A DNA stretch of 64,000 nt from a virus (IMGVR_UViG_3300025141_012314:1-64000), one strand, 5' to 3'; positions 17,256-38,322 are shown, numbered from the stretch's first letter. A program made the numbers and translations. The notes: generated from the letters alone by a model not told the origin.

Positions 17256-18539
17256 ATGAAGAAAAAGAAAGTTTTGGTGCTCTCCGATCACCCGCTTTCG
17301 CCATCTGGGGTTGGAACCCAAACCCGGTATATGATCGAGGCGCTCCTTAAAACAGGGCGCTATCAATTTGTTTGTTTAGGCGGAGCAGTAAAACACAGAG
17401 AATACCAGATGCAAAAGGTTGATCCCTATGGGGAAGACTGGCGAATATTCCCTGTCGATGGATATGGAAACCCCGAAATCATACGCTCGATACTCCAGAA
17501 AGAAAGACCGGATGTATTGTGGTTTATGACAGATCCTCGTTTTTATACGTGGCTGTGGGAAATCGAGAACGAAGTGAGAATCAACGTCCCAATGGTTTAT
17601 TATCATGTATGGGATAACAACCCGGCACCGTTCTATAATGCAAACTACTACAAATCTAATGATAAGGTAGTTTGTATATCAAAGGTTACAAAGGGTATTC
17701 TGGATACAGTTGCTCCAGACGTAGACAGCGAGTATCTTCCACATGCGGTAGACTCGGAGTCTTTCTATAAGTTCAAAACAGATGAAGATCTTGCAAGAAC
17801 CGCTGTTATTCGTGAACGCGTCGTTGGAGCCTCAACAGAGTTCGCCAACCCGGAGAAGAAAATCTTTTTCTGGAATAATAGAAATGCACGTAGAAAACAG
17901 TCTGGAACACTTATTTGGTGGTTTAAAGAGTTCTTAGATGAAGTGGGTCATGACAAAGCTACTCTGCTTATGCATACTGATGCGCGAGATCCTCACGGAC
18001 AAGACTTGCCTCATATCTTGAACCACCTTAATATAACAGACGGACAGGTTTTGCTTTCAACTGATAAGGTTTCTCCACAAGATCTCGCAGCAATGTACAA
18101 CGCTGCGCATTTTACCATTAATATCTCAGATGCAGAAGGATTTGGACTAGGAACGTTAGAGTCTTTAGCATGCGGAACTCCTATTATTGTTAATATGACA
18201 GGAGGCTTGCAAGAGCAGGTTACCGATGGAAAGAACTGGTTTGGCTACGGTTTAGAACCTTCCTCGAAGGCGATTATTGGTTCCCTACAAGTGCCATATA
18301 TCTACGAGGATCGTATCACCCAGAAAGCTTTCACCAACACCCTCAAAAAGGCTCTGAACATCGCACCAAAGACTTACAAGAAGATGTCGATACAAGGTAG
18401 AGAACATGTTCGTGCAAACTATAACTTTGACGATTATGAGAAAAACTGGGTTAAGATTATGGATGATGTTGTTGAAACATACGGATCATGGGAAGAGAGA
18501 AAACAATATAAACGCTGGCATTTATTGGAGGTAGCGTAA
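17256..18539 (+). CDS. GT-B (GT4-like) glycosyltransferase
   Basis: NRNARRK, EGFGLGTLESLACGTPII. Confidence 0.9.
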   Translation: MKKKKVLVLSDHPLSPSGVGTQTRYMIEALLKTGRYQFVCLGGAVKHREYQMQKVDPYGEDWRIFPVDGYGNPEIIRSILQKERPDVLWFMTDPRFYTWLWEIENEVRINVPMVYYHVWDNNPAPFYNANYYKSNDKVVCISKVTKGILDTVAPDVDSEYLPHAVDSESFYKFKTDEDLARTAVIRERVVGASTEFANPEKKIFFWNNRNARRKQSGTLIWWFKEFLDEVGHDKATLLMHTDARDPHGQDLPHILNHLNITDGQVLLSTDKVSPQDLAAMYNAAHFTINISDAEGFGLGTLESLACGTPIIVNMTGGLQEQVTDGKNWFGYGLEPSSKAIIGSLQVPYIYEDRITQKAFTNTLKKALNIAPKTYKKMSIQGREHVRANYNFDDYEKNWVKIMDDVVETYGSWEERKQYKRWHLLEVA

Positions 18540-19801
18540 TGAAAAAGAAAGTATTCTTTAGAGGACCCCTTCTAACAAGATCGGGATACGGAGAACAGGC
18601 TAGATTCGCAATGCGGGCATTAGCTTCCCGACCAGATCTTTTCGATATTTATATTCAGCCTTTAGAATGGGGGAAAACCTCGTGGACCAATGAGGATACC
18701 CCTGAGAGGGCTTGGATTGATAGAACCATAGAAAAGACCCTGCAATACATCCAGCAAAACGGACAGTTTGATATATCGTTCCAAGTTACAATTCCAAATG
18801 AATGGGACAAGCCAGCACCGATTAATATTGGATACACAGCCGGGATTGAGACTACGAAAACATCACATCAATGGATCCAAAAGGGCAATGAGATGACTGG
18901 TATTATTGTAGTTTCCAACCATGCGAAAAATACTTTTTTAGCTACGGACTACCAACTGTCCAATCAACAAACAAACCAAACAATGATTCTCAAGTTAGAA
19001 ACTCCAATTGAGACAGTTAACTACCCAGCAAAGAAGTTCCAGGAACTTCCAGATGTTGATTTAGACTTAGAATACGAACACAATTTCCTAGTAGCAGCCC
19101 AATTGGGCCCTCGCAAAAACGTGCCAAACACTATTAAATGGTTTGTTGAAGAGTTTCGAGACGAAGAAATAGGGCTTGTTGTAAAGTGTTACGCTGCAAA
19201 GAACTGTCTGCTCGACCGCGAGATGACAATGCAAAATCTTAGACAGCTAGTCTCCCAATTGGGAGAAAAGAAGTGTAAAGTATATCTTCTGCACGGTGAC
19301 ATGTCCGACGAAGAAATGCATTCCCTCCAAACACATCCTAAGATTTCCGCATTCTTATCCCTAGCTCATGGCGAGGGCTTTGGTTTACCGATTTTTGAAG
19401 CAGCCTATTCTGGTACCCCTGTCATTGCAACCGGTTGGTCTGGTCAGCTGGACTTTCTTGTTGACGAAGAGGGCAAATCAAACTTTTACAACGTAAATTT
19501 CGATCTCAACCAAGTACAGCCAGCAGTTGTTTGGGATGGTGTCTTAATCGCCGACTCAATGTGGGCTTATCCTCGCGAACAGTCTGCAAAGAAGTGTATG
19601 CGCGACTGTTATAATGATATTATAAATCAAACAGAAGGAAGTGTTGCAACATCTGCCGACACCTTTGCTGAGTCCGTGCAGGAGAGATTTTCGCAGGAAA
19701 AACAATATAAAGCCATGGTGGACGCCGTTCTCAAGTTCTCTGGGAGCCCAGAAGAAGAACAATGGAGAGATGTGTTGGACCAAGTGGTAGAGTATGATTA
19801 G
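18539..19801 (+). CDS. GT-B (GT4-like) glycosyltransferase
   Basis: SGYG, RKN, HGEGFGLPIFEAAYSGTPVI. Confidence 0.9.
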   Translation: MKKKVFFRGPLLTRSGYGEQARFAMRALASRPDLFDIYIQPLEWGKTSWTNEDTPERAWIDRTIEKTLQYIQQNGQFDISFQVTIPNEWDKPAPINIGYTAGIETTKTSHQWIQKGNEMTGIIVVSNHAKNTFLATDYQLSNQQTNQTMILKLETPIETVNYPAKKFQELPDVDLDLEYEHNFLVAAQLGPRKNVPNTIKWFVEEFRDEEIGLVVKCYAAKNCLLDREMTMQNLRQLVSQLGEKKCKVYLLHGDMSDEEMHSLQTHPKISAFLSLAHGEGFGLPIFEAAYSGTPVIATGWSGQLDFLVDEEGKSNFYNVNFDLNQVQPAVVWDGVLIADSMWAYPREQSAKKCMRDCYNDIINQTEGSVATSADTFAESVQERFSQEKQYKAMVDAVLKFSGSPEEEQWRDVLDQVVEYD

Positions 19802-21461
19802 CAAAGAAGTAATCTTTATATCCGACTTCTTTATCAATGAGGTAATGGGTGGCGCTGAGTTTTGTAATGATGCTCTGATGAAACTTTTAAGTCCGGATGT
19901 AAAGATTGATAGTTTAAAGTCTGACCGTGCAACTGTTCAACTTGTTGAGAATAATCTTGATAAGTTCTTCATTGTCGCGAACTTCTTTCAACTTGCTGAG
20001 AATGTAAAAGTAGCTTTAGCAAAAACAACATATGTTATTTTAGAGCACGATCACAAATATGTCCGCTCAAATAATCCTTCCTTATACAAAGATTTTCTTG
20101 CGCCAGAAAGACAAATACAAAATAAGGCATTTTATAAGAATGCGTTAGCGGTACTGTGCCAGTCTAGGAAGCATGCCGGAGTCGTCCAACGCAACCTCCT
20201 AATAAACAATATTGTAAATTTAGGCGGCAACATATGGAATGAGGAACAACTCGCCACTTTAGAGAATAATATGGGCGCGAAGAAAATAATTAAGTATGGA
20301 GTTCTCCAGTCCAATAACCGCAACAAAGGCATGCCCGCAGCGATCGCATATTGTCAGAGAAAAGGATTAGACTTTAAGCTAATTCAAGGCAAGCCATTTC
20401 CTGAGTTTATTAGAGATATCTCCCAAGTGGAAACATTAGTATTCTTTCCGCAATGGTTAGAGACATATAATCGTTTTTCTATTGAATCAAGGATCCTGGG
20501 CTGTAAACTTATAACAAACAGCCTGATAGGCGCCACCAGCGAAGACTACTTTAAGCTGAAGGGCAACGAACTTTTAGATTTTATAAGACAAAACAATCAG
20601 AATCTTCGTCAGCGCTGGATTAAACTAATCAACAATAGTGAAATAAAATACTTCCCGCCCTTAGACCTGCCAAAGATTACGGTATTCTGTCCCCTATATG
20701 CCGGCGAACAATATATTGAAGGCTTTCTGAAGTCTATGCAAGAACAGACAATCTTTGATCAGTGCGAACTGATCATTATTGATGCCAACTCTCCCGAAAA
20801 CGAGAGTCAATACATCGAAGAGTTTATGAAAGAGCATGAAAATGTAATTTACAAGCGATTAGATCATAGGGCGTCAGTAATGGAAACTGAAAATATGGCA
20901 ATCCACATGGCAACGGGTGAGTTCTTTGCTCAAGCATGCGTTGATGACAGACATCATAGAGAATATCTTGAGATTATGGCAAAACATCTCCACTATCACG
21001 AGGATATAGATCTTGTTTATACAGACTGTCTACAGACTACAAAGCCAAATGAGACCGTAGAGACAAACTCTTCGTCTGGAGCCTATTACGAGCATTCGCG
21101 TAATGAGTTTTCTCCGGAGAACATGATCAAGTGTTTGCCGGGACCAATGCCTATGTGGAAGCTGAGTGTGCACGAAAAATGTGGATATTTTGATGAAGGT
21201 TTATCGTATGCTGGAGATTGGGACATTTTTCTAAGAATGGTAGCGTCAGGTTCTAAATTTAAGAAAATTGATATTCCGTTAGGGTTATATTACTTTAATT
21301 CTGAGGGATTATCAACCTCAACAGAAAATCAAATCCCTAGGGGAAAAGAAGAGGCGGAAGTCTTCTTTAAGCATAAAAACGTATTCGGTGAAGCGAACTA
21401 CAATAAATATAAAAATTACTTCTCACAATTTATAAGGAATGAAAATGAGTCAACAACGTAA
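19794..21461 (+). CDS. Bifunctional glycosyltransferase: GT-B-like N-half + GT2 C-half
   Basis: GGAE...ETYNR..IES..LGC (GT-B); ELIIIDANS, VDD, GYFDE.L.YAGDWD (GT2). Confidence 0.8.
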   Translation: MISKEVIFISDFFINEVMGGAEFCNDALMKLLSPDVKIDSLKSDRATVQLVENNLDKFFIVANFFQLAENVKVALAKTTYVILEHDHKYVRSNNPSLYKDFLAPERQIQNKAFYKNALAVLCQSRKHAGVVQRNLLINNIVNLGGNIWNEEQLATLENNMGAKKIIKYGVLQSNNRNKGMPAAIAYCQRKGLDFKLIQGKPFPEFIRDISQVETLVFFPQWLETYNRFSIESRILGCKLITNSLIGATSEDYFKLKGNELLDFIRQNNQNLRQRWIKLINNSEIKYFPPLDLPKITVFCPLYAGEQYIEGFLKSMQEQTIFDQCELIIIDANSPENESQYIEEFMKEHENVIYKRLDHRASVMETENMAIHMATGEFFAQACVDDRHHREYLEIMAKHLHYHEDIDLVYTDCLQTTKPNETVETNSSSGAYYEHSRNEFSPENMIKCLPGPMPMWKLSVHEKCGYFDEGLSYAGDWDIFLRMVASGSKFKKIDIPLGLYYFNSEGLSTSTENQIPRGKEEAEVFFKHKNVFGEANYNKYKNYFSQFIRNENESTT

Positions 21462-21858
21462 ATACCTTCCTACACTCTCCGAATTGATCGATCGCCTGTC
21501 GATTGCACAACTCAAAGAAGTGTTTATCCCCGAACACAAAGCTGAATATGCCCAGGAAATCTCAGATATCTGCCATGATATCCAGTTGATTCTCGATTCT
21601 AGTTCCGGCAAAATGAACGCGGAAACTGTAAGAGCGATAATTGTCCTCTCTCAGATGAACTTGCACATTTGGCACAATGAGTCTCAAGTTAGAGCCGGCT
21701 CAGGTTCTGGCAATCTAGCGCTAACTCACGGACTCAACGGTCTTCGGAATGTGGCAAAAAACAGGATTCAAGAGATTAACGGCGGCAGAAAAGATTATAA
21801 GATTGATTGTTTAGCAGCCGACTTTAAAGATTGGGAAATCAGCTGGGATAATGACTGA
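21445..21858 (+). CDS. Helical hypothetical protein (DUF4254-like)
   Basis: SELIDRLSI.QLK, N..IWH.E..VR, LN..RN..K..I pattern. Confidence 0.6.
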   Translation: MSQQRKYLPTLSELIDRLSIAQLKEVFIPEHKAEYAQEISDICHDIQLILDSSSGKMNAETVRAIIVLSQMNLHIWHNESQVRAGSGSGNLALTHGLNGLRNVAKNRIQEINGGRKDYKIDCLAADFKDWEISWDND

Positions 21859-22942
21859 GGTTTATGACTTTGATGTTGTCATTATTGGAGCCGGACTTGT
21901 AGGATTAGCTGTAGCTAGAGAATTATCCTCGGTATATGATAATATCATATTAGTTGAAAAAGAGTCAAGTTTCGGACAGCACGTTTCGAGTCATAATAGC
22001 GAAGTTATCCACTCCGGCATATATTATCCCAAGGGCGCCCTTAAAACTAAACTATGTGTTGAGGGCAATAAACTGCTTTATAAATTTGCACAAAAATATG
22101 ATATACCGCATAAGAAATGTGGAAAATTGATTGTGGCTACCTGCCCAGAAGAAGAACCTATTCTTGATCAACTTTATGAGCAGGGGAAGAAAAACGCGGT
22201 AGTAGGTATGTCAATGATTGGCAAATCAGAGATCGCCAAAATAGAGCCAGCCGTTAAAGCAACAAAGGCACTCCACGTAGAATCTACAGGAATAATAGAC
22301 AGCCATTCAGTTATGCAGCAGCTTGAGGCGTCAGCCTTAAATGCGGGGGTGGTCACTCTGTATAATACTGAAATAACATCGATTGATAAAAAAAATAACA
22401 TTTATAAGTTGACAACTGATACAAATAATGATATTATACAAACAAGAATAGTAATTAACGCTGCAGGGCTCTGGAGCGACACTATTGCGGCAATGGTGGG
22501 AATAAATGATTATAAGATCCATTGGTGTAAAGGCGAGTATTATAAAACCAATAAACACAGGAATATGAAAAAGCTGATTTATCCGGTACCGGATCCTCAA
22601 GGCAAGTATTTGGGAATTCATACGGTACTAGATTTAAATGGCGGACTTCTTTTCGGACCAAATGCATATTATGTAGACAATCTCTCTTATGATATGAAAG
22701 AGAATAACAAGCCCCAGTTTTATGAGGCGATTAATCGATATTTAGATATCGGTTGGTGCGAGATAGAACCAGCGTTAACTGGCATAAGACCAAAACTTCA
22801 AGCTCCCGGCGAGAAATTTAGAGATTTTGTAATAGAAAATAACCAAAAACATGAGAATTTTATCAACATAGTAGGAATAGAATCACCGGGCTTGACAGCC
22901 TGTCTTGCTATTGCTAAACATACAAGGGGAATTATTAGATGA
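21851..22942 (+). CDS. FAD-dependent oxidoreductase, L-2-hydroxyglutarate oxidase-like
   Basis: GAGLVG, S.HNSEVIHSGIYY, KGEY, GIRPKL, SPGLTACLAIA. Confidence 0.85.
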   Translation: MTEVYDFDVVIIGAGLVGLAVARELSSVYDNIILVEKESSFGQHVSSHNSEVIHSGIYYPKGALKTKLCVEGNKLLYKFAQKYDIPHKKCGKLIVATCPEEEPILDQLYEQGKKNAVVGMSMIGKSEIAKIEPAVKATKALHVESTGIIDSHSVMQQLEASALNAGVVTLYNTEITSIDKKNNIYKLTTDTNNDIIQTRIVINAAGLWSDTIAAMVGINDYKIHWCKGEYYKTNKHRNMKKLIYPVPDPQGKYLGIHTVLDLNGGLLFGPNAYYVDNLSYDMKENNKPQFYEAINRYLDIGWCEIEPALTGIRPKLQAPGEKFRDFVIENNQKHENFINIVGIESPGLTACLAIAKHTRGIIR

Positions 22943-23877
22943 AAAAAGAACACGTATTAGTCACAGGAGGCGCCGGCTATATAGGCTCTGAACTGATCGA
23001 TTACTTACTCCACGCAGGATATACTGTAACAGCGCTCGATAACTTAATGTATGATCCGACGTCGTTGCTGCGCTATACCAACAATCCAGATTTTAGCTTC
23101 ATCAAGGGGGACGTTAGAAACGTTCTATTGATGGAACGCCTTATGGCAGAAGCAGACATTATTATACCTTTGGCGGCATTGGTTGGCTTTCCTTTGTGCG
23201 ATGAGGACCCCCGTGCTGCCCAAGAGATTAACCATGACGTTAATACTTGGATAGCAAAAAACAAAAAGCCAAATCAAAAGGTTATCTACCCCTGCACTAA
23301 CTCTGGCTACGGCGTTAGTGTCGATGGTTCTGTCTGTACAGAAGAATCACCCCTTAATCCTATTTCGCTTTACGGGCGAACTAAAGTGGCTGCAGAGAAG
23401 GAATATCAGGATGTTGATAACTGCGTAACATTTAGACTGGCTACTGTTTTTGGCCCGGGCTCACGCATGCGCTCTGACCTCCTTGTAAACAACTTTGTTC
23501 TTAAGACATTGCGCGAGAGAGTTTTGGTGTTGTATGAATGTGAGTTCATGCGCAACTATGTGCATCTTCATGATGTATGTCGCGGCTTTATGTTTGTGCT
23601 CCGTAACTGGGAAGATTGTAAAAATGAAACATATAATCTTGGAAATGACGAACTGAATATGAACAAGCTCCAGCTAGCCGAAAAGATTCAAGAGCATCTT
23701 CCTCTAGAGATAATCCGCGCAGAGATTAACAGCGATCCTGATACCCGCGACTACATTGTTAGTAGCGATAAGATTTATAATAAAGGCTACAAGTGCGCAT
23801 ATGATCTCGATGATGGAATCAGACAACTCATAACTGCATATGCTATTATAGAAAGCCCTTGGTACGCAAACTATTAA
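22939..23877 (+). CDS. NAD-dependent sugar epimerase/dehydratase (extended SDR)
   Basis: TGGAGYIG, YGRTK, RLATVFG. Confidence 0.9.
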   Translation: MKKEHVLVTGGAGYIGSELIDYLLHAGYTVTALDNLMYDPTSLLRYTNNPDFSFIKGDVRNVLLMERLMAEADIIIPLAALVGFPLCDEDPRAAQEINHDVNTWIAKNKKPNQKVIYPCTNSGYGVSVDGSVCTEESPLNPISLYGRTKVAAEKEYQDVDNCVTFRLATVFGPGSRMRSDLLVNNFVLKTLRERVLVLYECEFMRNYVHLHDVCRGFMFVLRNWEDCKNETYNLGNDELNMNKLQLAEKIQEHLPLEIIRAEINSDPDTRDYIVSSDKIYNKGYKCAYDLDDGIRQLITAYAIIESPWYANY

Positions 23878-23878
23878 T

Positions 23879-25387: not shown

Positions 25388-25388
25388 T

Positions 25389-26000
25389 ATGTTAACGAAA
25401 GAAGATTTGATTGATTTTGAGAACGACATTGCAGCCTGTTTTGATGACGCACAAATCCGCGCACCCGTTCACTTATATAACGGTAATGAAGAGCAAATGT
25501 TGGAGATATTTCGAAAGCATGATATTGGCGATGATGATTGGGTCTTCGGATCTTGGCGAAGCCATTATCAGTGTCTTCTCAAAGGTGTTCCTCCCGAAAA
25601 GCTCAAAGCAGCTATTCTTAAGGGGCGCTCTATTTCATTGTGCTTTGCTGAGCAAAAGGTTCTATGCTCGGGGATCGTAACTGGTGTTCTTCCGATTGCA
25701 GTAGGGGCAGCGCTAGACATTAAAAGGAGAAACCTCCCGGGAAAAGTATATTGTTTTATGGGAGATATGACATCCGAGACTGCGATCGCGCATGTAAGTA
25801 TAAAATATGCCAGAAATCACAAACTCCCTATTCACTTTATCGTTGAAGATAATGGCAAATCAGTTTGTACTGATACTAAATCCACGTGGGGAACTGAGAA
25901 GTTAACCTATGAAGATGTCAACGACGAGTACATAACATATTATAGCTACGACGCAAGTAAGTGGCCACACGCTGGAGCCGGCAAGAGAGTGCAGTTTTGA
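25389..26000 (+). CDS. TPP-dependent dehydrogenase E1 alpha-like subunit (short)
   Basis: PVHL..G.E, WRSH, GDM...EDN TPP-binding motif. Confidence 0.85.
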   Translation: MLTKEDLIDFENDIAACFDDAQIRAPVHLYNGNEEQMLEIFRKHDIGDDDWVFGSWRSHYQCLLKGVPPEKLKAAILKGRSISLCFAEQKVLCSGIVTGVLPIAVGAALDIKRRNLPGKVYCFMGDMTSETAIAHVSIKYARNHKLPIHFIVEDNGKSVCTDTKSTWGTEKLTYEDVNDEYITYYSYDASKWPHAGAGKRVQF

Positions 26001-31606: not shown

Positions 31607-32388
31607 GACCAGAGTTATCAATAATACTCCCCAGCATCCGCCCGGATCGCTTAGAGAAACTGTACGATTCAATACTCACATCGACAGAACGCACATTCGA
31701 GCTAATCATAGTTGGTCCATATCCACTACCAGAGAAACTCTCCGAACTTAAGAATGTAAAATACGTTAAGGATTTTGGATCTCCCGTCCGAGCCTCGAAC
31801 ATTGCAGCTTCTTTGTGCGAGGGAGAAGTCTATACATGGTTTGCTGACGACTGCATTCTATTTGAAAACAGCTTAGACAAGTGCCTAGACGAATATCGCG
31901 CCATGGGAACTGACAACAAAAATGTCCTTGTGGCGAAGTATTATGAAGGACAAGAAGGTTCTACAGAGCGAGAGACGCTCCAGCCCGATAGCTACTTTAG
32001 AGTTAACGGCACACCTGCAGGTTCGCCACATCTTCCAGACGATTGGTGGCTTTTTAATATCGCCTTTCTTTCAGCCGAGTTCTTCCATACTCTAGGAGGC
32101 TGGGACTGCTCTTACGAGGGAACATGGGCATCACATGCAGATATGGCTATCCGAGCCCAATACCTTGGTGCCAATGTAAAAATGGCACAGATTCCCCTCT
32201 TTACTTGCGATCATATGCCCGGAGGAACCGGGGATCACAAGCCGATATTCGAGTGCCAGCATCAACATGATGAACCACTACTACAACGTAAGTTCAGAGA
32301 TCCAAATTGGACTACAAACGTAAACCCAAGACTAAAAATAGATAATTGGAAAACAGCCCCAGCAGTCTGGGGAAGGAGATTTAAATGA
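31603..32388 (+). CDS. GT2-family glycosyltransferase (paralog B)
   Basis: LSIILPSIR, ADD, LGGWDC.YE. Confidence 0.8.
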   Translation: MRPELSIILPSIRPDRLEKLYDSILTSTERTFELIIVGPYPLPEKLSELKNVKYVKDFGSPVRASNIAASLCEGEVYTWFADDCILFENSLDKCLDEYRAMGTDNKNVLVAKYYEGQEGSTERETLQPDSYFRVNGTPAGSPHLPDDWWLFNIAFLSAEFFHTLGGWDCSYEGTWASHADMAIRAQYLGANVKMAQIPLFTCDHMPGGTGDHKPIFECQHQHDEPLLQRKFRDPNWTTNVNPRLKIDNWKTAPAVWGRRFK

Positions 32389-32987
32389 GCGATAAGAAAA
32401 TAGGAACGAACACTAATATGGCTGATCCCATAAAACAGACACAAGGGGTCAAACTTAATTTAGGTTGTTCTAGCCGTAAATTTCACGGCTGGATTAATAT
32501 TGACGCAAGACAAGAAGTTTTTCCAGATGTTATAGATAATGTTTTTACTCTGGAAAGTATCGAAGATTCGTCTGTAGACTTAATTTATGCTTCTCATTTA
32601 CTTGAGCATATCAAAAGGAAGGAAGTCAAAAGTGTTTTATCACGATGGAAAGCGCTTCTTCGGACAAATGGTGTTTTAAGATTATCTGTACCTGACTTTG
32701 AAAAAGTAATAAAATATTATTTACTCACTGCAGACTTAGAAAAATTACACGGACTTTTGCATGGAGGACAAAGAAATGAATATGATATTCATTACATTAC
32801 TTTTGATTTTAAGTTATTAAAAAGACTTCTGGTAGAAGTAGGATTTGCAGAAGAAGACATTCGAATCTATTCTTATAAGGAAACAGAACATTTCTTTATT
32901 GATGATGGTAGTCAAGCTCACTTGCCACATATGGATAAGGTCAATGGGATGCTAATGAGTTTAAATGTGGAGGCGATCAAAAGATGA
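32385..32987 (+). CDS. Class I SAM-dependent methyltransferase
   Basis: LNLGC, GWINID, SVD.IYASH.LEH, L...GVLRLSVPD. Confidence 0.85.
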   Translation: MSDKKIGTNTNMADPIKQTQGVKLNLGCSSRKFHGWINIDARQEVFPDVIDNVFTLESIEDSSVDLIYASHLLEHIKRKEVKSVLSRWKALLRTNGVLRLSVPDFEKVIKYYLLTADLEKLHGLLHGGQRNEYDIHYITFDFKLLKRLLVEVGFAEEDIRIYSYKETEHFFIDDGSQAHLPHMDKVNGMLMSLNVEAIKR

Positions 32988-33826
32988 TCAATCAAAGTAC
33001 ATGTGACTTATCAATTATTGTCCCGGGAATTCAACCGGAAAATTGGGAATCTCTTTATGAGAGAACCAAATTAGCAGTTAAAAACCATACATTTGAAATT
33101 ATTTTCTGTGGGCCCCGCGGCTTGCCTTCTTATTTTGATGATATTATAAATGTAAAATTTATAAGAGATTATGGAACCCCATCTAGGTGTTTTCAATTAG
33201 CGGGGTATATTGCTGAGGGGACCTATTTAACATGGCTAACTGATGATGGGGAAATTGAAGAAGACTCAATTGATTTAGCGCTCGATCTCATAAAAGAAAA
33301 AGAATCTATTGATATTGTTACTATGAGATATACAGAAAGCGACACTGAAGAAGGCCGCCAAACAGAATTTCCTCTAGAATATTATAATGTTTCATATCAT
33401 CCCGATACAAACCACCCGGGTGTCGAGTCACACTGGAAGATTCCGTGTGTTATGTTGCTTAATACAAACTATTATAGGCAACTTGGTGGTTTAGATTGTA
33501 GATACGAACACATGAATATGAATGTTCATGATCTTGGTTTCCGTGCACAACGCAACGGTTCTGTGGTCTATTATTCACCAACAGTTATAATGAGATGTGT
33601 GTGGGATCCTCATAGAAACGCACAAAATAGCCCTATTATTGCTGCTTTCGTCTACAACGATAAACCGCTTTTTCAATATGATTATGCGGCACCACAGGTC
33701 GCGAAGTTAAAACCAATATGTATCGATTATGACAATTGGAGAAACAACCATTCAGTTTGGCCAAGACGTTTTGGAACTATAGATAAAGGACAATATTTAC
33801 TTAATAAAGATAAGGTGAAAAAATGA
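32984..33826 (+). CDS. GT2-family glycosyltransferase (paralog C)
   Basis: LSIIVPGI, TDD, LGGLDC.YE. Confidence 0.8.
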   Translation: MINQSTCDLSIIVPGIQPENWESLYERTKLAVKNHTFEIIFCGPRGLPSYFDDIINVKFIRDYGTPSRCFQLAGYIAEGTYLTWLTDDGEIEEDSIDLALDLIKEKESIDIVTMRYTESDTEEGRQTEFPLEYYNVSYHPDTNHPGVESHWKIPCVMLLNTNYYRQLGGLDCRYEHMNMNVHDLGFRAQRNGSVVYYSPTVIMRCVWDPHRNAQNSPIIAAFVYNDKPLFQYDYAAPQVAKLKPICIDYDNWRNNHSVWPRRFGTIDKGQYLLNKDKVKK

Positions 33827-34758
33827 AAATTTTAGTTACGGGAGCAAATGGTTTAATTGGCTATGCTATTCGCGAAATAGCTGTCAAATACTCCCAACAC
33901 GAATTTTTCTTTAGTACTAGAGAAGATACTAATTTGATAAAGCCCGATGAGGTCGCGCGATTATTCGACCGTGTTAACCCAGATTGGGTTATACACGCTG
34001 CCGGACAGGTAGGGGGTATCGGCGGTAATCTATCCCATCAAGAGGATTATTTCTATAATAATATTTTAATGAACTCTAATGTTATTCACTATGCGTGCCT
34101 CTCAGATGTAAAGAAATTGATAGCGTTTTCTTCTACTTGTGTTTTTTCACGAGAACAAGAGACATTTGTAGAAGACGATATACAAAAAGGAGAGCCTTTT
34201 CATATTCACTTTGCTTATGCTTACGCTAAAAGAATGGTGGACATTCATATTAAGGCAGCTAAAAGACAACACGACGTCGATTTTTGCTCAGTAATACCGG
34301 GAAATATATTTGGTAAACATGATAATTTTAATTTAGAGGAAGGTCACGTGACTCCTTCATTAATTTATAAGTGCCAATTGGCAAAAAAAGACGATGACCC
34401 GTTTAAAATATGGGGAAATGGTAATGCAAAAAGAGAGTTGATATATTCTTTAGATATAGCTGAGATTTTAATACGCATATTAGAGATGGAACAGTTGCTG
34501 CCAAATAGATTATTAGTGGGGAGTGACGATGAACTTTCTATTAAAGAATTAGCAGAAAAAATAGCGGACCTTTCTGGGTTTGATGGCGAGATAATGTTCG
34601 ATAAAAACAAGCCCGATGGACAATTGAGAAAGAAATCTAACATATCTAGACTTAGAACACTCCTTCCAGATTTCAAATTTACAAACTTAGATGTTTCTTT
34701 AAAAGAAACAATTGAATGGTTTACTCAAAATTATCCCAATATTCGTGGTATAAAATAA
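33823..34758 (+). CDS. GDP-L-fucose synthase / GDP-colitose synthase (Fcl/ColC-like)
   Basis: HAAGQVGGIGGN, SSTCVF, YAYAKR, DNF....HV, WG.G...RE, KPDG. Confidence 0.85.
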   Translation: MKILVTGANGLIGYAIREIAVKYSQHEFFFSTREDTNLIKPDEVARLFDRVNPDWVIHAAGQVGGIGGNLSHQEDYFYNNILMNSNVIHYACLSDVKKLIAFSSTCVFSREQETFVEDDIQKGEPFHIHFAYAYAKRMVDIHIKAAKRQHDVDFCSVIPGNIFGKHDNFNLEEGHVTPSLIYKCQLAKKDDDPFKIWGNGNAKRELIYSLDIAEILIRILEMEQLLPNRLLVGSDDELSIKELAEKIADLSGFDGEIMFDKNKPDGQLRKKSNISRLRTLLPDFKFTNLDVSLKETIEWFTQNYPNIRGIK

Positions 34759-35288
34759 TGTATTATGTTGATAATATAAAATATAGCTCAGAGATTGAAG
34801 GAGCGGTGATAATTTCTCTGGACACATTTGATGATGTAAGGGGAAAGATTTGGACGCTATATGGCGAAAACAGCTTTCTTCCGGAATTTGTAGAAGATAA
34901 AATAACTATTTCTTATAAAAATGTTTTAAGGGGGCTCCACGGAGACGCGCGCACCGGGAAGCTTATTACATGTATTGGGGGAAGCTTTCAATTAGCGATC
35001 GCAGACATGAGGCCCGAATCGCCTACCTACACAAATACTTATATGATTACATTAAGCGATGAAAATCCCACATCCGTTTATATACCCCCGGGCTGCATAA
35101 ACGGACATCTATGTTTAAGCGATAGATGTACGTTTCATTATAAATGGACACGACCTTATGAAGGTCCCCAAGACCAAGTAACCATATTGTGGAACGATCC
35201 GGATTTAGCTTTCGAGTGGTCAATCCATAATCCCATTTTATCTGAAAGAGATCAAAATGGAACATCATTTAAAAGGAGTTGTATATGA
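34758..35288 (+). CDS. rmlC: dTDP-4-dehydrorhamnose 3,5-epimerase family
   Basis: F.D.RG, NVLRGLH, D.RPESPTY, IPPG..NG, WNDP, PILSERD. Confidence 0.85.
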   Translation: MYYVDNIKYSSEIEGAVIISLDTFDDVRGKIWTLYGENSFLPEFVEDKITISYKNVLRGLHGDARTGKLITCIGGSFQLAIADMRPESPTYTNTYMITLSDENPTSVYIPPGCINGHLCLSDRCTFHYKWTRPYEGPQDQVTILWNDPDLAFEWSIHNPILSERDQNGTSFKRSCI

Positions 35289-36487
35289 AATATCAAAACT
35301 ATAAAAAATCCAGACAAGAGACAATTAAATATCCCTTAGCAAAAGAAACTATTAACGACGAAGATGTCAATGCATTATGCGACTGGCTCAAGAGCTATCC
35401 GCGCCTGACAAAGGGTGCGTTGACTTGGCAAGTCGAAGAAGACTGGGCAAAGTACATCGGAACCAGATACTCAGTTTTTAATAACTCAGGATCCTCAGCA
35501 AACCTCTTAATGGTCGCTGCTGCAGTCCAAGCCGGACGCATCCCAAACAAGAAGATCGCAGTACCATCCGTAGGTTGGGTTACCACTATCTCTCCAGCAA
35601 TGCAGCTTGGACTAGAACCAATCATGGTCGGCTCTGACCCAGAAACATACGGCATGGATTTAGACCAGCTGGAGGCAGTTTGCGAACGCGACCGACCTGA
35701 CGCTGTTATCTTTGTCCAAGTATTGGGCGTACCGCACTACAAAGAGCGTCTGCTGGCGTTAAAGGAGAAATACGGGTTCATACTCCTTGAAGATGCTTGC
35801 GCGGCTCTAGGAGCCTCCTACGCCGACGGAAGCATGGTTGGGACAGTCGGAGACATGTCTTCATTCTCGTTCTACTTTGGGCACCAGTTGTCAACTATCG
35901 AGGGCGGAATGGTTAACGTAAACGACCCAGAACTATATGAAATGCTACTAATGCTTCGCTCTCACGGCTGGGCTAAGGATTTGCCGAAAGATTCATATGA
36001 CGAACTGATGTCTGAGCACGGCGTTGATGATTTTCATAGCCCGTTTACATTTTTTATCCCGGGATACAACCTAAGATCGACAGACCTGCAGGCATTCTTG
36101 GGCATTCGCCAGATTAAAAAGGCTGACTGGGCTGCAAAAAGGCGATATGAGAACCACTGTTTATATGCTGAAAAGCTCGAAGGATATGTAGAGTTTCAGA
36201 AGTGGGGAGACAATACTCCTGTGTCGATTTCATTTGGAGCCTTGGCTAGCAGCACCGAACATCGCCGAGAAATAGTCGAAAGACTTGTCGCAAACGGCGT
36301 CGAAACTAGGATATATAGCGCTGGTAATCTTGGCCGGCATCCTTTCTGGACAGCCAAATACGAAGAGTTTGTTGATGAGCACAGCGATAAGATTCACTCT
36401 CAAGGCTTTTTCATCCCAAACTATCCCGAGTTGACAGCAGACGAGATTGACTTTATCTGCAACGTAGTCAAAGGCGAAGTCGAATGA
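35285..36487 (+). CDS. DegT/DnrJ PLP enzyme, ColD/E1-type 3-dehydratase-like (His in place of catalytic Lys)
   Basis: NSGSSANL, EDAC, SFYFGHQLSTIEGG, RSHGW, GYNLR. Confidence 0.8.
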   Translation: MKYQNYKKSRQETIKYPLAKETINDEDVNALCDWLKSYPRLTKGALTWQVEEDWAKYIGTRYSVFNNSGSSANLLMVAAAVQAGRIPNKKIAVPSVGWVTTISPAMQLGLEPIMVGSDPETYGMDLDQLEAVCERDRPDAVIFVQVLGVPHYKERLLALKEKYGFILLEDACAALGASYADGSMVGTVGDMSSFSFYFGHQLSTIEGGMVNVNDPELYEMLLMLRSHGWAKDLPKDSYDELMSEHGVDDFHSPFTFFIPGYNLRSTDLQAFLGIRQIKKADWAAKRRYENHCLYAEKLEGYVEFQKWGDNTPVSISFGALASSTEHRREIVERLVANGVETRIYSAGNLGRHPFWTAKYEEFVDEHSDKIHSQGFFIPNYPELTADEIDFICNVVKGEVE

Positions 36488-37221
36488 GGATTCTCGTAAT
36501 AGGAGAAAGTTGCAAAGATGTTTATCAGTACGGCGATTGTGTCAGGCTCTGTCCTGAAGCGCCCGTGCCGGTCTTCCAAAGTAATCGACACCAAACGATT
36601 AATGGTGGAATGGCGATGAACGTTTACAACAATGTGTCCTCTTTATGCGAGTACCCTGTTGATCTGATTACGAACGAGAATTGGACAGAGATCTTAAAAA
36701 CAAGACTAGTCGATTTCCGTACAAATTATATAGTTTTGCGTGTAGATCAAAATGACGCCGATTATGAAAAGAGTGATATAACAAAGATCGAGTTTGAAAA
36801 ATATGACGCAGTTATAATCTCGGACTATAATAAAGGATATTTGTCCGAGGATGACATTGAATATATTGCAACGCAGCATCCAATAACATTTCTTGATACA
36901 AAAAAGATTTTAGGAAACTGGTGTCGCAATATTATGTTTATTAAGATAAATGAATTTGAATATGAGCGCACTCGACATCGTTTGGAAGAGGATATGATTG
37001 ATAAGATGATTATTACTCTTGGTCCAAACGGCGCCAAATATAAAGACGAGCTTTATAAGGTGCCCAAAGTAGAGATAAAAGATACTTCTGGTGCCGGCGA
37101 TACATTTATTTCCGGGCTTGTTGTAAAATATGTAGAAACTGGTGAGATTGACACCGCGATTAAATATGCGAATGAGTGTGCTACTGCTGTTGTGCAAAAA
37201 AAGGGCGTAACCATAGTATAA
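36484..37221 (+). CDS. PfkB-family sugar kinase, HldE/RfaE domain I-like
   Basis: RLCPEAPVP, GMA.NV..N, SDYNKG, DTSGAGDTF. Confidence 0.85.
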   Translation: MRILVIGESCKDVYQYGDCVRLCPEAPVPVFQSNRHQTINGGMAMNVYNNVSSLCEYPVDLITNENWTEILKTRLVDFRTNYIVLRVDQNDADYEKSDITKIEFEKYDAVIISDYNKGYLSEDDIEYIATQHPITFLDTKKILGNWCRNIMFIKINEFEYERTRHRLEEDMIDKMIITLGPNGAKYKDELYKVPKVEIKDTSGAGDTFISGLVVKYVETGEIDTAIKYANECATAVVQKKGVTIV

Positions 37222-37619
37222 TGCAAAACAAAACCACCATATGGACGAACGGCTGTTTTGACGTGCTCCACCGCGGACACTTTGAGATGCTTAAGTATGC
37301 GAAGTCTTTAGGAGACTATTTAATTGTGGGCATAGACACTGATGAGAAAGTTAAGAAGGATAAGGGACAGAACAGACCTTACAACCATCAGAATGATCGA
37401 AAGTTTGCGCTTGAATCAATAAGATATGTTGACGAGGTAATACTTTTTAATTCATCAAATGAATTAAAAAACTTGATAAAAGTGTTGAAACCGGATATAA
37501 TGGTTATAGGTTCTGATTGGAAAGGAAAAACAGTTGTGGGACAAGAGTTTTCAACTGTAAAGTTTTTTGATAGGATTGGTGATTATTCAACCACAAACAT
37601 TTTGGAGAACAAGGGATGA
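37221..37619 (+). CDS. Nucleotidyltransferase, HldE/RfaE domain II-like
   Basis: TNGCFDVLHRGH, KG..RP, GSDW, YSTT. Confidence 0.85.
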   Translation: MQNKTTIWTNGCFDVLHRGHFEMLKYAKSLGDYLIVGIDTDEKVKKDKGQNRPYNHQNDRKFALESIRYVDEVILFNSSNELKNLIKVLKPDIMVIGSDWKGKTVVGQEFSTVKFFDRIGDYSTTNILENKG

Positions 37620-37957
37620 CATATGTATTTGATATCGATGGAACAATTTGTACGAAAGCAGCTGACTATGACTACGAGAGTTCAGAACCAATACAAGAAA
37701 GGATAGATTATATTAATAGATTATTCGACTCTGGGCACGTTATAATTTTTCAAACAGCCAGAGGTATGGGAAGAAGTAGAAACTCTGCTGCGTACGCCAA
37801 CGCAGCATTTTATATTATGACCCAAGAACAGCTTAAGAGTTGGGGTGTGAGATATCACGATTTATTTTTAGGCAAACCCGCCGGCGATATTTATATCGAC
37901 GATAAAGGTGTTAGAGATACGGATTTTTTTGATAATTTAGGAGCAGAGGCTAAATGA
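37616..37957 (+). CDS. Small HAD phosphatase (capsule-biosynthesis type)
   Basis: FDIDGT, TARG, GKP..D.YIDDK. Confidence 0.85.
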   Translation: MTYVFDIDGTICTKAADYDYESSEPIQERIDYINRLFDSGHVIIFQTARGMGRSRNSAAYANAAFYIMTQEQLKSWGVRYHDLFLGKPAGDIYIDDKGVRDTDFFDNLGAEAK

Positions 37958-38322
37958 GTAAACCCACACATGAATTATCAATGTTCCACGTCGATAAAGG
38001 CTGGGGCTGGGAACGTTGGATCGTAAACACCGAAGAATATTGCGGCAAACTATTGTTTTTCAACAAGTCCAAGCGCTGTTCATGGCACTACCACAAGCTA
38101 AAAGATGAGGTTTTTTATCTACAGTCCGGAAAAATGATGATTTATTTTTCTGACAGCGATGAACTTGAAAACGCCAGCCAACTCATCTTAAACCCCGGCG
38201 ATAACTTTCATGTTTATCGAGGGCTGCGCCACCAAATGGTAGCGCTGGAGGACTCGGAGCTATTCGAGTTTTCAACACAACATTTTGACTCTGATTCCTA
38301 CAGAGTAATCAAAGGAGATTAA
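37954..38322 (+). CDS. Cupin-fold sugar isomerase-like protein
   Basis: KGWG.E, S.HYH..KDE.FY, H.M.A, EFST. Confidence 0.8.
   Translation: MSKPTHELSMFHVDKGWGWERWIVNTEEYCGKLLFFNKSKRCSWHYHKLKDEVFYLQSGKMMIYFSDSDELENASQLILNPGDNFHVYRGLRHQMVALEDSELFEFSTQHFDSDSYRVIKGD

What the first reader, a model, noticed from the sequence alone, without database searches (positions are those of the whole stretch)
17256..38322. ~21-kb phage glycan-building operon with no export or polymerase genes, next to the virion genes
Seen: 23 tightly coupled genes. They include 7 glycosyltransferase genes (8 GT domains), NDP-sugar enzymes, 2 sulfotransferase-like genes, 2 methyltransferase-type genes and a TPP enzyme. No flippase, Wzy, ABC exporter or initiating phosphoglycosyltransferase is present, and I saw no obvious TM segments. 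The late sigma and baseplate genes follow within ~2 kb. Known: giant eukaryotic viruses and some actinophages glycosylate their virions. Inference: a cytoplasmic pathway builds a complex, sulfated/methylated, branched glycan on virion proteins (alternatively on DNA or host LPS), at a scale unusual for a bacteriophage.
Basis: partly seen in the sequence, partly recalled or inferred. Interest (0 to 1): 0.8.

Follow-up and report, generated by a model that had tools for sequence, protein, structure and literature searches.

The report
Membrane-free glycan operon in marine phage
An uncultured but abundant ocean phage carries a real 21-kb operon of 25 soluble enzymes that make rare sugars and join them into a sulfated, methylated glycan. 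Similar gene clusters are already known in large marine phages, and it remains unproven what the sugars are attached to.

Summary
They comprise 7 glycosyltransferase genes with 8 GT domains, a ColD-type 3-dehydratase, an Fcl-like reductase, an RmlC-like epimerase, SDRs, a short UDP-sugar dehydrogenase and an HldE-like kinase/nucleotidyltransferase/phosphatase/cupin module. There is also a B12 radical-SAM enzyme, a split E1-like ThDP enzyme, two sulfotransferase-like genes and a methyltransferase.

No initiating transferase, Wzx or Wzy/ligase was found in five related contigs. ABC exporters were not searched by family.

The operon is syntenic in at least 14 related viral contigs and under strong purifying selection. 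Small decoration cassettes are swapped between near-identical phages. A conserved sigma-70 promoter drives it.

The claim of unusual scale fails. Phage Bellamy has a ~24-kb cluster. P-SSM2 shares the four-gene kinase module, and S-SCSM2R and pelagimyophages have comparable sets.

The acceptor is unresolved. I favour the phage's own proteins (0.4) over the host envelope (0.3). This scan has flagged such exporter-free phage glycan loci at least 14 times on other DNA, with the same outcome.

The parts
16422..16450 (+). Sigma-70-type promoter TTGACG-17-TATAAT, 22 nt before the exonuclease gene that heads the operon
   Evidence: Scored 11/12. An 11-12/12 site with a 17-nt spacer sits 18-32 nt upstream of the orthologous gene in all six genomes; the hexamers are conserved and the spacers are not.
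16472..17245 (+). Exonuclease, first gene after the promoter. It is not a glycan gene.
   Evidence: phrog_69 exonuclease, E 5.5e-22. The order phoH-x-x-exonuclease is also seen in P-SSM2.
17256..18539 (+). g1, GT4 (GT-B) glycosyltransferase
   Evidence: Glycos_transf_1 E 4e-11. phrog_2170 glycosyltransferase E 5e-28.
18539..19801 (+). g2, GT4 glycosyltransferase
   Evidence: Glycos_transf_1 E 3e-8.
19794..21461 (+). g3, two-domain glycosyltransferase: a GT-B-like N-terminal half plus a GT2 (GT-A) C-terminal half. Possible polymerising enzyme.
   Evidence: Glycos_transf_2 at residues 297-411, E 4e-12. Best PDB sequence hit is K4CP chondroitin polymerase. The AF2 model has pLDDT 68.6 and hits both GT-A and GT-B chains. 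A GGAE motif sits at residues 19-22.
21439..21858 (+). g4, 139-aa protein of a virus-only family. Function unknown.
   Evidence: DUF7783 below cut-off. Atlas neighbours are 100% viral. It is 71% identical in the phage-like contig of a Prochlorococcus single-cell genome.
21851..22942 (+). g5, FAD-dependent oxidoreductase (DAO family). Accessory.
   Evidence: PF01266 E 9e-62. Resembles L-2-hydroxyglutarate and glycerol-3-P oxidases, below cut-offs. Present only in close relatives and G005.
22939..23877 (+). g6, SDR NDP-sugar epimerase/dehydratase/reductase
   Evidence: PF01370 E 4.5e-31. 44-47% identical to the SDR of the bacterial radical-SAM/E1 cassette.
23879..25387 (+). g7, cobalamin-binding radical SAM enzyme (class B)
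   Evidence: PF02310 plus PF04055. More than 120 close clusters in ocean metagenomes. Bacterial homologues at 50-59% identity.
25389..26000 (+). g8, minimal E1-alpha-like ThDP subunit (203 aa)
   Evidence: E1_dh E 1e-10. 61-68% identical to bacterial cassette genes. The GDM...EDN variant of the ThDP motif is conserved.
25961..26605 (+). g9, sulfotransferase-like protein (weak call). Accessory.
   Evidence: Sulfotransfer_1 E 0.0038, below cut-off. PRSG loop. Absent from the 97-99% identical relative L001.
26598..27137 (+). g10, minimal E1-beta-like subunit (179 aa, no transketolase C-terminal domain)
   Evidence: Transket_pyr E 1.4e-8. 62-68% identical to bacterial cassette genes.
27112..28095 (+). 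g11, GT-B glycosyltransferase of the CgeB-like Glyco_trans_1_2 family
   Evidence: PF13524 E 2.8e-18.
28079..28915 (+). g12, GT-A glycosyltransferase (paralogue of g16 and g18)
   Evidence: Alignment A1 shows an invariant DD motif. AF2 pLDDT 90.7. Foldseek GT-A hits. dN/dS 0.010.
28915..29700 (+). g13, short (261 aa) NDP-sugar 6-dehydrogenase lacking the C-terminal nucleotide-binding domain
   Evidence: UDPG_MGDP_dh_N plus the central domain only. GxGxxG and GGMCLPKD motifs are present. It is 261 aa in all relatives, with dN/dS 0.020.
29697..30599 (+). g14, sulfotransferase (Sulfotransfer_2). Accessory and variable.
   Evidence: PF03567 at 26 bits, above the cut-off of 22. PKTGGTS loop. Absent in L001 and only 37-40% identical elsewhere.
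30596..31606 (+). g15, SDR NDP-sugar epimerase/dehydratase
   Evidence: PF01370 E 3.6e-38 and GDP_Man_Dehyd E 7e-29.
31603..32388 (+). g16, GT-A glycosyltransferase
   Evidence: Weak PF00535 hit. Paralogue of g12.
32385..32987 (+). g17, SAM methyltransferase. First gene of swappable cassette A.
   Evidence: Methyltransf_11/12/23 hits. 92% identical to G001 but 45% to L001.
32984..33826 (+). g18, GT-A glycosyltransferase (cassette A)
   Evidence: Paralogue of g12. 85% identical to G001 and 37% to L001.
33823..34758 (+). g19, GDP-fucose-synthase/ColC-like reductase (cassette A)
   Evidence: NF047922 E 7e-61, below cut-off.
34716..35288 (+). g20, RmlC-like 3,5-epimerase (cassette A)
   Evidence: PF00908 E 2e-39. 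Absent from cassette-B phages.
35279..36487 (+). g21, ColD-type PMP-dependent NDP-4-keto-6-deoxyhexose 3-dehydratase
   Evidence: PDB 2gms (ColD/WbdK) E 8e-56. Its His aligns with ColD His188 in place of the PLP lysine.
36484..37221 (+). g22, short PfkB sugar-phosphate kinase (HldE domain I-like)
   Evidence: rfaE_dom_I E 1e-29, below cut-off. 41% identical to the P-SSM2 'carbohydrate kinase'.
37176..37619 (+). g23, cytidylyltransferase-fold nucleotidyltransferase (HldE domain II / TagD-like)
   Evidence: rfaE_dom_II E 1e-35, below cut-off. 47% identical to the P-SSM2 gene.
37616..37957 (+). g24, small HAD phosphatase
   Evidence: TIGR01689 capsule phosphatase E 9e-10, below cut-off. DIDGT motif. 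44% identical to the P-SSM2 gene annotated 'phosphoheptose isomerase'.
37954..38322 (+). g25, cupin, the most widely shared gene of the operon
   Evidence: Cupin_2. phrog_7851 E 1e-57. 60-78% identical in 33 of 35 matching cyanophage or marine-virus records.
39100..39834 (+). Possible gp55-like late sigma factor (weak). Context only.
   Evidence: phrog_234 'late sigma transcription factor' E 0.0013 over 145 of 181 profile positions. Homologues lie at the same position upstream of the baseplate genes in immuto and Mel-JY01. No Pfam or PDB hit.

Best explanation
The locus is a phage-borne, membrane-independent glycan assembly line.

**Transcription (inferred).** Host RNA polymerase with sigma-70 starts at the conserved promoter at 16422-16450. 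It reads through the exonuclease gene and 25 translationally coupled genes.

**Activated sugars (inferred from family membership).**
- ColD-type dehydratase g21, ColC/Fcl-like g19, RmlC-like g20 and SDRs g6 and g15 give 3,6-dideoxy or 6-deoxy hexoses. Relatives with the other cassette add Gmd, which completes a GDP-colitose route.
- Kinase g22, phosphatase g24, nucleotidyltransferase g23 and cupin g25 activate a heptose-like sugar phosphate by ADP-heptose logic.
- The short dehydrogenase g13 makes a uronic acid.
- B12 radical SAM g7, split ThDP enzyme g8/g10 and SDR g6 (plus FAD oxidase g5 in some phages) make a C-branched or C-methylated sugar.

**Assembly and decoration (inferred).** Eight soluble GT domains (g1, g2, g3 with two domains, g11, g12, g16, g18) assemble these sugars in the cytoplasm. 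Sulfotransferases g9 and g14 and methyltransferase g17 decorate the product.

**Acceptor (favoured, not shown).** I favour the phage's own proteins, probably virion proteins. The glycan would then leave the cell on the particle and need no exporter.
For: **The enzymes are real and functional.**
- dN/dS is 0.01-0.06 for 13 of the 14 operon genes scored against the near-identical relative L001 (g5 0.20). PhoH and the exonuclease score the same range.

**Nothing for initiation or export was found.**
- There are no TM segments in the operon.
- No Bac_transf, Glycos_transf_4, Wzx or Wzy_C was found in five contigs, while controls matched.

**The backbone behaves like a core phage module.**
- It has the same position and order in 14 of 15 related IMG/VR contigs and in full in G001-G005.
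- Its proteins are 62-87% identical across G001-G005. The neighbouring 450-aa, 311-aa and 2131-aa proteins (function unassigned) are 30-49% identical or unmatched.
- Seven GTs therefore keep one acceptor while those neighbouring proteins turn over.

**Position.** The operon lies directly upstream of the genes that precede the baseplate module.

**Precedent.** Where soluble multi-GT sets of lytic viruses have been tested, they glycosylate the virion. Examples are mycobacteriophages (Freeman 2023, cited in PMC12619734 and PMC12801897) and, from my own knowledge, chloroviruses and mimiviruses.
Against: - No acceptor was identified.
- The conserved promoter is of the host sigma-70 (early) type. 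The CTATTTAT motif that precedes the 2131-aa and gp25-like genes does not occur inside the operon.
- The enzyme families and their nearest cellular relatives belong to bacterial surface-polysaccharide loci.
- Soluble GTs are also the norm for Und-PP-linked assembly, and the host could supply initiation and export.
- The putative [S/T][G/A]S sequon is not specific to cluster-bearing phages.
- The contigs are only 44-61% complete, so a membrane partner or a DNA-modification gene could lie elsewhere.
Confidence: 0.4

Rival explanations
1. Host-envelope remodelling. The phage GTs work on a host lipid carrier (Und-PP-sugar or lipid A-core). Host Wzx/Wzy or ABC machinery exports the product. The infected cell's surface changes, which blocks superinfection or stops progeny from re-adsorbing. 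This is the standard reading of cyanophage and pelagiphage 'LPS' genes.
For: - Colitose, heptose, uronic acid and sulfation are typical O-antigen and capsule chemistry.
- The radical-SAM/E1/DegT/epimerase/SDR cassette sits in bacterial genomes such as Pelagibacteraceae, Betaproteobacteria and Herbaspirillum.
- The early-type sigma-70 promoter is conserved in six genomes.
- Decoration cassettes are swapped between near-identical phages, like serotype switching.
- The two-domain GT g3 and terminal methyl or sulfate groups fit ABC-transporter-type assembly (own knowledge).
- The literature proposes this reading (PMC7029224, PMC12801897).
Against: - No initiating transferase, flippase, polymerase or ligase was found.
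- The host exporter would have to accept a foreign glycan.
- The backbone is conserved like a core module while neighbouring unassigned proteins diverge beyond recognition. This is unexpected if the acceptor were a strain-variable host glycan.
- To my knowledge, no lytic phage has been shown experimentally to do this with soluble GTs.
Confidence: 0.3
2. DNA hypermodification. The GTs glycosylate hydroxymethylated bases of phage DNA to evade restriction.
For: - Phage GTs are known to hypermodify DNA (Pyle 2024, cited in PMC12619734).
- Early expression would fit.
- g11 has a faint hit to a PHROG named beta-glucosyltransferase (E 2e-4).
Against: - No thymidylate-synthase-like hydroxymethylase was found in five contigs. 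They are incomplete.
- Eight GT domains, sulfation and 3,6-dideoxy or branched sugars far exceed known DNA glycans.
- No match to a T4-type DNA glucosyltransferase family appeared in the Pfam results.
Confidence: 0.05
3. Another product. The operon makes a free or lipid-linked oligosaccharide or glycoside, for example a glycolipid, a decoy or signal molecule, or a glycan on a host cytoplasmic protein. The product acts inside or around the infected cell.
For: - No acceptor is evident.
- PDH-E1-like pairs and B12 radical SAM enzymes are best known from glycosylated natural products (PMC4425429).
- g4 and several small neighbours have no known function.
Against: - No aglycone-building genes (PKS, NRPS, terpene) and no transporter are present.
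- I know of no precedent in phages.
Confidence: 0.15

Closest known systems
'LPS / cell-wall synthesis and modification' clusters of large T4-like cyanomyoviruses (P-SSM2, Bellamy, S-SM2, S-CAM1/3, S-SSM7, S-SCSM2R)
   Same: - Both are marine myoviruses with many soluble GTs plus NDP-sugar enzymes, no Wzx/Wzy-type assembly or export genes, and a position near tail or baseplate genes.
- The kinase/nucleotidyltransferase/HAD/cupin module is homologous: cupin 60-78%, the others 41-47% identical and in a row in P-SSM2.
- Bellamy's cluster is ~24 kb with ~29 genes.
- The function of those clusters is untested too.
   Different: - Only 4 of the 25 genes have BLAST-detectable counterparts in P-SSM2. 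In Bellamy only g24 and g25 match above 30% identity; g6, g13 and g19 match at 20-25%.
- The seven GTs, the sulfotransferases, ColD and the radical-SAM/ThDP module were not matched in the Bellamy and P-SSM2 stretches fetched.
- Here the backbone is a syntenic, conserved core of the lineage rather than a hypervariable island.
Host recognition cluster of pelagimyophages (Zaragoza-Solas et al. 2020, PMC7029224)
   Same: GTs, rfaE-type and UDP-glucose-dehydrogenase genes sit beside tail-fibre genes in abundant uncultured marine myophages. The host-surface hypothesis was proposed there.
   Different: That region is described as non-syntenic and dominated by GT8. This phage is not a pelagimyophage: its nearest isolates by gp6-like protein are Mel-JY01 and Flavobacterium immuto phages at ~30% identity.
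Virion glycosylation of mycobacteriophages (Freeman et al. 2023) and autonomous glycosylation in chloroviruses and mimiviruses
   Same: Virus-encoded soluble GTs and, in the giant viruses, virus-encoded NDP-sugar pathways act in the cytoplasm without lipid carrier or export genes. This is the mechanism favoured here.
   Different: There the glycans were demonstrated on capsid, tail or fibril proteins. Here nothing is demonstrated. Mycobacteriophages use 1-4 GTs and no sugar pathways. There is no detectable sequence relationship.
Uncharacterised bacterial cassette of B12 radical SAM, E1-alpha/beta-like pair, DegT, RmlC-like epimerase and SDR. Chemical precedents are AviB1/AviB2 and Pau11/Pau12.
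   Same: g6, g7, g8 and g10 are 44-68% identical to this cassette in Pelagibacteraceae, betaproteobacterial and Herbaspirillum genomes. PDH-E1-like pairs add a two-carbon branch to keto-sugars (PMC4425429).
   Different: The phage and bacterial subunits are half-size (203 and 179 aa, against 325 and 345 aa for Pau11/12). The cassette's product is unknown. In bacteria it sits near membrane proteins.

Membership tests
Marine-myovirus 'LPS/cell-wall' glycan gene cluster (P-SSM2 / Bellamy type) | Lies in a T4-like or related myovirus genome | tested here: met
   gp25- and gp6-like baseplate wedge genes. PhoH and the phoH-x-x-exonuclease order match P-SSM2. The contig is an IMG/VR virus record.
Marine-myovirus 'LPS/cell-wall' glycan gene cluster (P-SSM2 / Bellamy type) | Several GTs plus NDP-sugar enzymes, without export genes | tested here: met
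Marine-myovirus 'LPS/cell-wall' glycan gene cluster (P-SSM2 / Bellamy type) | Shares homologous genes with the described clusters | tested here: met
   g22-g25 are 41-63% identical to P-SSM2 genes, in a row. The cupin reaches 78% in Bellamy. The other 21 genes have no match there above 30% identity.
Marine-myovirus 'LPS/cell-wall' glycan gene cluster (P-SSM2 / Bellamy type) | Hypervariable, non-syntenic island | tested here: not met
   The backbone is syntenic in 14 of 15 related contigs. Only g5, g9, g14 and the g17-g20 cassette vary.
Virion glycosylation system | Glycan covalently bound to virion proteins | not testable with these tools
   This needs glycoproteomics of particles or of co-expressed proteins.
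Virion glycosylation system | Acceptor motif specific to cluster-bearing phages | tested here: not met
   [ST][GA]S is enriched in the 541-aa and 3758-aa proteins and their orthologues (z 2.8-11.9). It is also enriched in Mel-JY01 (z 7.2 and 7.0) and immuto (z 3.5), where the fetched flanks show no such cluster.
Virion glycosylation system | Co-regulation with late or structural genes | tested here: inconclusive
   A conserved sigma-70 promoter lies before the operon. The candidate late motif lies only upstream of phoH at 14013, not inside the operon. No expression data exist.
Bacterial O-antigen / capsule locus (Wzx/Wzy or ABC type) | Initiating polyprenyl-phosphate transferase | tested here: not met
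   PF02397 and PF00953 are absent from five contigs, while controls matched.
Bacterial O-antigen / capsule locus (Wzx/Wzy or ABC type) | Flippase or ABC exporter, and polymerase or ligase | tested here: not met
   PF01943 and PF04932 are absent. The operon has no multi-TM protein. ABC-exporter families were not searched separately.
GDP-colitose pathway (Gmd, ColD, ColC) | ColD with His in place of the PLP lysine | tested here: met
   E 8e-56 to ColD. The His aligns with His188.
GDP-colitose pathway (Gmd, ColD, ColC) | Gmd and ColC present | tested here: inconclusive
   The window has no Gmd. g19 is Fcl-like below cut-off. Relatives with cassette B carry a clear Gmd (PF16363, 378 bits).
ADP-heptose pathway (GmhA, HldE, GmhB, HldD) | Kinase, phosphatase and nucleotidyltransferase of the right folds | tested here: inconclusive
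   rfaE domain I scores 103 bits (cut-off 345). Domain II scores 123 bits (cut-off 181.5). The HAD phosphatase scores 39 bits. All are below the equivalog cut-offs.
ADP-heptose pathway (GmhA, HldE, GmhB, HldD) | SIS-type sedoheptulose-7-P isomerase GmhA | tested here: not met
   No SIS domain appears in the operon. A cupin occupies the fourth position instead.
Phage DNA glycosylation | Base hydroxymethylase (thymidylate-synthase fold) | tested here: not met
   PF00303 is absent from five contigs, while controls matched. The contigs are 44-61% complete.

The most novel reading that the evidence does not exclude
An abundant, uncultured lineage of ocean myoviruses coats its own particle proteins with a large, sulfated, methylated hetero-glycan. 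The glycan contains 3,6-dideoxy, heptose-like and C-branched sugars and is made entirely in the cytoplasm. Near-identical phages exchange small decoration cassettes (sulfotransferases; methyltransferase/GT/reductase sets), which gives 'serotypes' of virions. This would be a bacteriophage counterpart of giant-virus glycan coats, with consequences for phage stability, stickiness and recognition in seawater.
Probability: 0.35. Interest if true: 0.75.

Novelty: new variant of a known kind. Interest (0 to 1): 0.45.

Why it matters
Large marine phages have been known since P-SSM2 to carry sugar-building gene clusters, and no one has shown what these do.

This lineage is abundant in ocean metagenomes. 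Its radical-SAM gene alone has more than 120 clusters at 90% identity in Tara, JGI and ENA data.

It also offers an unusually clean case for bench work:
- a fixed, strongly conserved backbone of seven GTs;
- all proteins soluble;
- defined swappable decoration cassettes;
- a single conserved promoter.

That makes the acceptor question testable by expressing the operon with candidate phage proteins. It also points to an uncharacterised bacterial sugar pathway (B12 radical SAM plus a half-size ThDP enzyme) that phages have borrowed.

Tried and rejected
- **DNA search against isolated phages.** Megablast of the 21 kb found nothing.
- **T4 late promoter.** TATAAATA is over-represented in the window (12 against 4.6 expected) but is mostly on the wrong strand and not placed before genes. 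I rejected it as this phage's late promoter.
- **Generic promoter and terminator scans.** Counts were near chance. Only the site before the exonuclease gene is conserved. The stem-loop at 17199-17214 lies in coding sequence for a Cys-rich tail and is not conserved as a terminator.
- **Late sigma.** Pfam at E 5 and a PDB profile search gave nothing. Only a weak PHROG hit remains.
- **[S/T][G/A]S sequon.** The enrichment is real. I rejected it as evidence for virion glycosylation because Mel-JY01 and immuto homologues show it too.
- **Nearest isolates.** Immuto and Mel-JY01 show no comparable cluster in the 20 kb upstream of the gp55-like gene.
- **g12 and g4 against phage records.** No match.
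- **Cluster look-up for names.** It gave no organism names.
- **Host.** It was not identified. The sigma-70 consensus argues only against a Bacteroidota-type promoter.

Full report
**What is there.** Between 17256 and 38322 the + strand carries 25 ORFs. Every junction overlaps or leaves at most 1 nt. GC content is 0.38-0.44, like the rest of the window. No protein has a TM-like 19-residue window apart from Rossmann N-termini.

Pfam, NCBIfam, PDB and structure searches give these assignments:
- g1 and g2 are GT4.
- g3 is a 555-aa protein with a C-terminal GT2 domain. Its N-terminal half has a GGAE motif, and its model matches GT-B enzymes.
- g11 is a Glyco_trans_1_2 GT-B.
- g12, g16 and g18 are paralogous GT-A enzymes with an invariant DD motif. 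Their model (pLDDT 90.7) matches WrtF, K4CP, ppGalNAc-T and TarS.

The sugar enzymes are:
- three SDRs (g6, g15, g19; g19 is Fcl-like) and an RmlC-like epimerase, g20;
- a ColD-type 3-dehydratase, g21, whose His aligns with ColD His188;
- a 261-aa UDP-sugar dehydrogenase, g13, which keeps the GxGxxG and catalytic-Cys motifs but lacks the C-terminal domain;
- a PfkB kinase, a cytidylyltransferase-fold nucleotidyltransferase, a small HAD phosphatase and a cupin, g22-g25;
- a B12-binding radical SAM enzyme, g7, flanked by half-size E1-alpha-like and E1-beta-like ThDP subunits, g8 and g10;
- a DAO-family flavoenzyme, g5.

The decorating enzymes are a Sulfotransfer_2 protein with a PKTGGTS loop (g14), a weak sulfotransferase-like protein (g9) and a SAM methyltransferase (g17). 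g4 belongs to a virus-only family of unknown function.

**Whose genome.** The window is the first 64 kb of an 80-kb IMG/VR virus contig judged 44% complete. It has gp25- and gp6-like baseplate wedge genes, PhoH and an exonuclease, plus a tmRNA and a tRNA-Thr.
- The nearest isolates by gp6-like protein share only ~30% identity. They are Microcystis phage Mel-JY01 and the Flavobacterium immuto phages.
- The lineage is abundant. The radical SAM protein has more than 120 clusters at 90% identity, at 66-96% identity to the query, in Tara, JGI and ENA data, on contigs up to 212 kb.

**Conservation.** Fourteen of 15 related viral contigs have the operon in the same place after phoH and the exonuclease gene.
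- In five contigs read from phoH to gp25, the backbone genes are 62-87% identical, like PhoH (68-86%) and the gp6-like protein (60-68%).
- The 450-aa, 311-aa and 2131-aa proteins just downstream are 30-49% identical or unmatched.
- Against the 97-99% identical relative L001, dN/dS is 0.01-0.06 for all scored operon genes except g5 (0.20). This includes the short dehydrogenase and the GT-A genes.

The variable parts are few: g5, g9, g14 and the block g17-g20.
- L001 lacks g9, g14 and g20, and its g17-g19 counterparts are only 37-48% identical.
- The window's g17-g20 are 85-92% identical to G001, whose backbone is 62-82% identical.
- The alternative cassette (L001 and G002-G005) holds another GT-A, another Fcl-like SDR, a clear GDP-mannose 4,6-dehydratase (378 bits) and another methyltransferase. 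With ColD it completes a GDP-colitose route.

The locus is therefore a fixed backbone with recombining decoration cassettes.

**Where the modules come from.**
- The radical SAM family is large, with more than 1000 clusters at 50% identity.
- Bacterial genomes from many phyla hold homologues at 50-59% identity.
- In a Pelagibacteraceae single-cell genome, a betaproteobacterial MAG and Herbaspirillum, the gene sits in a cassette with the same half-size E1 pair (61-68% identical), a DegT aminotransferase, an RmlC-like epimerase and an SDR.
- The variant ThDP motif (G[DE]M...EDN) is conserved across phage and bacterial copies.
- PDH-E1-like pairs are known to add two-carbon branches to keto-sugars: AviB1/B2 and Pau11/12 (PMC4425429).
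- The g22-g25 module comes from the cyanophage world. The cupin is 60-78% identical in 33 cyanophage or marine-virus records. P-SSM2 has nucleotidyltransferase, kinase, HAD ('phosphoheptose isomerase' in its annotation) and cupin in a row next to tail-fibre genes.
- A 130-kb contig in a Prochlorococcus single-cell assembly carries g4 (71%), g25 (66%), g22, g6, g20, g7 and a gp6-like gene. It is probably a phage.

**Regulation.** A sigma-70 consensus promoter (TTGAC[A/G], 17 nt, TATAAT-like; 11-12 of 12 positions) lies 18-32 nt before the exonuclease gene in all six genomes. The spacers are unconserved.
- The motif (A)CTATTTAT occurs 11 times on the + strand. It lies just before phoH, the 2131-aa gene and the gp25-like gene, but never between 14022 and 39712.
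- The operon is thus probably read by unmodified host polymerase from early in infection. This is inference. No expression data exist.

**Export, initiation and DNA.** Bac_transf, Glycos_transf_4, Polysacc_synt and Wzy_C are absent from five contigs of 80-113 kb, while positive controls matched. No thymidylate-synthase-fold hydroxymethylase is present either. All of these contigs are incomplete.

**The acceptor.** The [S/T][G/A]S tripeptide is indeed enriched in the 3758-aa protein (43 observed against 9.7 expected) and the 541-aa protein (9 against 1.9), and in their orthologues. The same enrichment appears in the positional homologues of Mel-JY01 and immuto, where the fetched flanks show no such operon. 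It is therefore a property of that protein family, not evidence of a sequon. Nothing else computable points to an acceptor.

I weigh three things:
- the absence of any lipid-carrier machinery;
- the core-like conservation of seven GTs beside rapidly diverging neighbours of unassigned function;
- the fact that tested multi-GT sets of lytic viruses glycosylate virions.

This gives the phage's own proteins 0.4, the host envelope 0.3, another product 0.15 and DNA 0.05. The remainder is unassigned.

**Comparison with the known.** Such clusters are a known kind.
- Bellamy has ~24 kb and ~29 genes.
- S-SCSM2R is reported with 22 genes including 13 GTs, and P-SSM2 and S-SCSM1 carry homologous genes (PMC12801897).
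- Pelagimyophages carry GTs, rfaE and UDP-glucose dehydrogenase in a host recognition cluster (PMC7029224).

The scale is therefore not unusual.

What differs here:
- the lineage;
- 21 of the 25 genes;
- the sulfotransferases, ColD and the radical-SAM/ThDP module;
- the architecture of a conserved backbone with swappable cassettes.

This scan has flagged exporter-free phage glycan loci at least 14 times on other DNA, and homologues of this very module in several genomes. Those follow-ups reached the same 'target unproven' verdict.

**Verdict.** This is a new variant of a known kind, of moderate interest.

Noticed in passing
window 7736-8079 (+): The phage encodes a full-length one-piece tmRNA (Rfam RF00023, 115 bits) with tag peptide ANNNNNFESVRLAA. 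A tRNA-Thr(TGT) lies at 13899-13973. The tag might help to identify the host.
   Followed up: partly
window 16422-16450 and orthologous sites in L004, L006, L007, L010, L011: A near-consensus sigma-70 promoter is conserved before the exonuclease gene in six diverged phages, while the spacer sequence drifts. This argues for a host with a standard sigma-70 consensus rather than a Bacteroidota-type promoter.
   Followed up: yes
window 1370, 2713, 3147, 14013, 42414, 48884, 52422 (+): The motif (A)CTATTTAT occurs 11 times on the + strand, often 14-65 nt before start codons (phoH, the 2131-aa protein, the gp25-like gene). It is a candidate late promoter for the weak gp55-like protein at 39100-39834. 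It is only loosely conserved in relatives.
   Followed up: partly
window 51087-52712 and 52702-63978; L106-L109; L022, L023: [S/T][G/A]S tripeptides are 3- to 5-fold enriched in the two proteins after the gp6-like gene in every relative. They are also enriched in Mel-JY01 and immuto homologues. The sites are scattered, not in repeats, and the reason is unknown.
   Followed up: yes
window 28915-29700: A UDP-sugar 6-dehydrogenase lacks its whole C-terminal nucleotide-sugar-binding domain. It is nonetheless 261 aa in all relatives and under strong purifying selection (dN/dS 0.02).
   Followed up: partly
L067 (Prochlorococcus sp. AG-409-P03, contig QCKN01000003.1): A 130-kb contig of a Prochlorococcus single-cell genome carries homologues of g4, g6, g7, g20, g22 and g25 and a gp6-like gene. 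It looks like a phage caught in an infected cell.
   Followed up: partly
L105 19652-19996 (P-SSM2 PSSM2_311): The P-SSM2 gene annotated 'phosphoheptose isomerase' is 44% identical to the small HAD-type phosphatase g24 (DIDGT motif). The cupin beside it is annotated 'nucleotidyltransferase' or 'cysteine dioxygenase' in different records. These annotations look unreliable.
   Followed up: no
L010 8005-10008 (G003): One relative has two extra ~330-aa genes, 36-40% identical to GT-A g16, inserted between the SDR and the radical SAM gene. This is another point where the backbone accepts insertions.
   Followed up: no
window 38802-39152: The only membrane-anchored protein near the operon is a 116-aa protein with one N-terminal TM helix and an acidic tail. 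It is conserved at 48-60% in relatives and its function is unknown.
   Followed up: no
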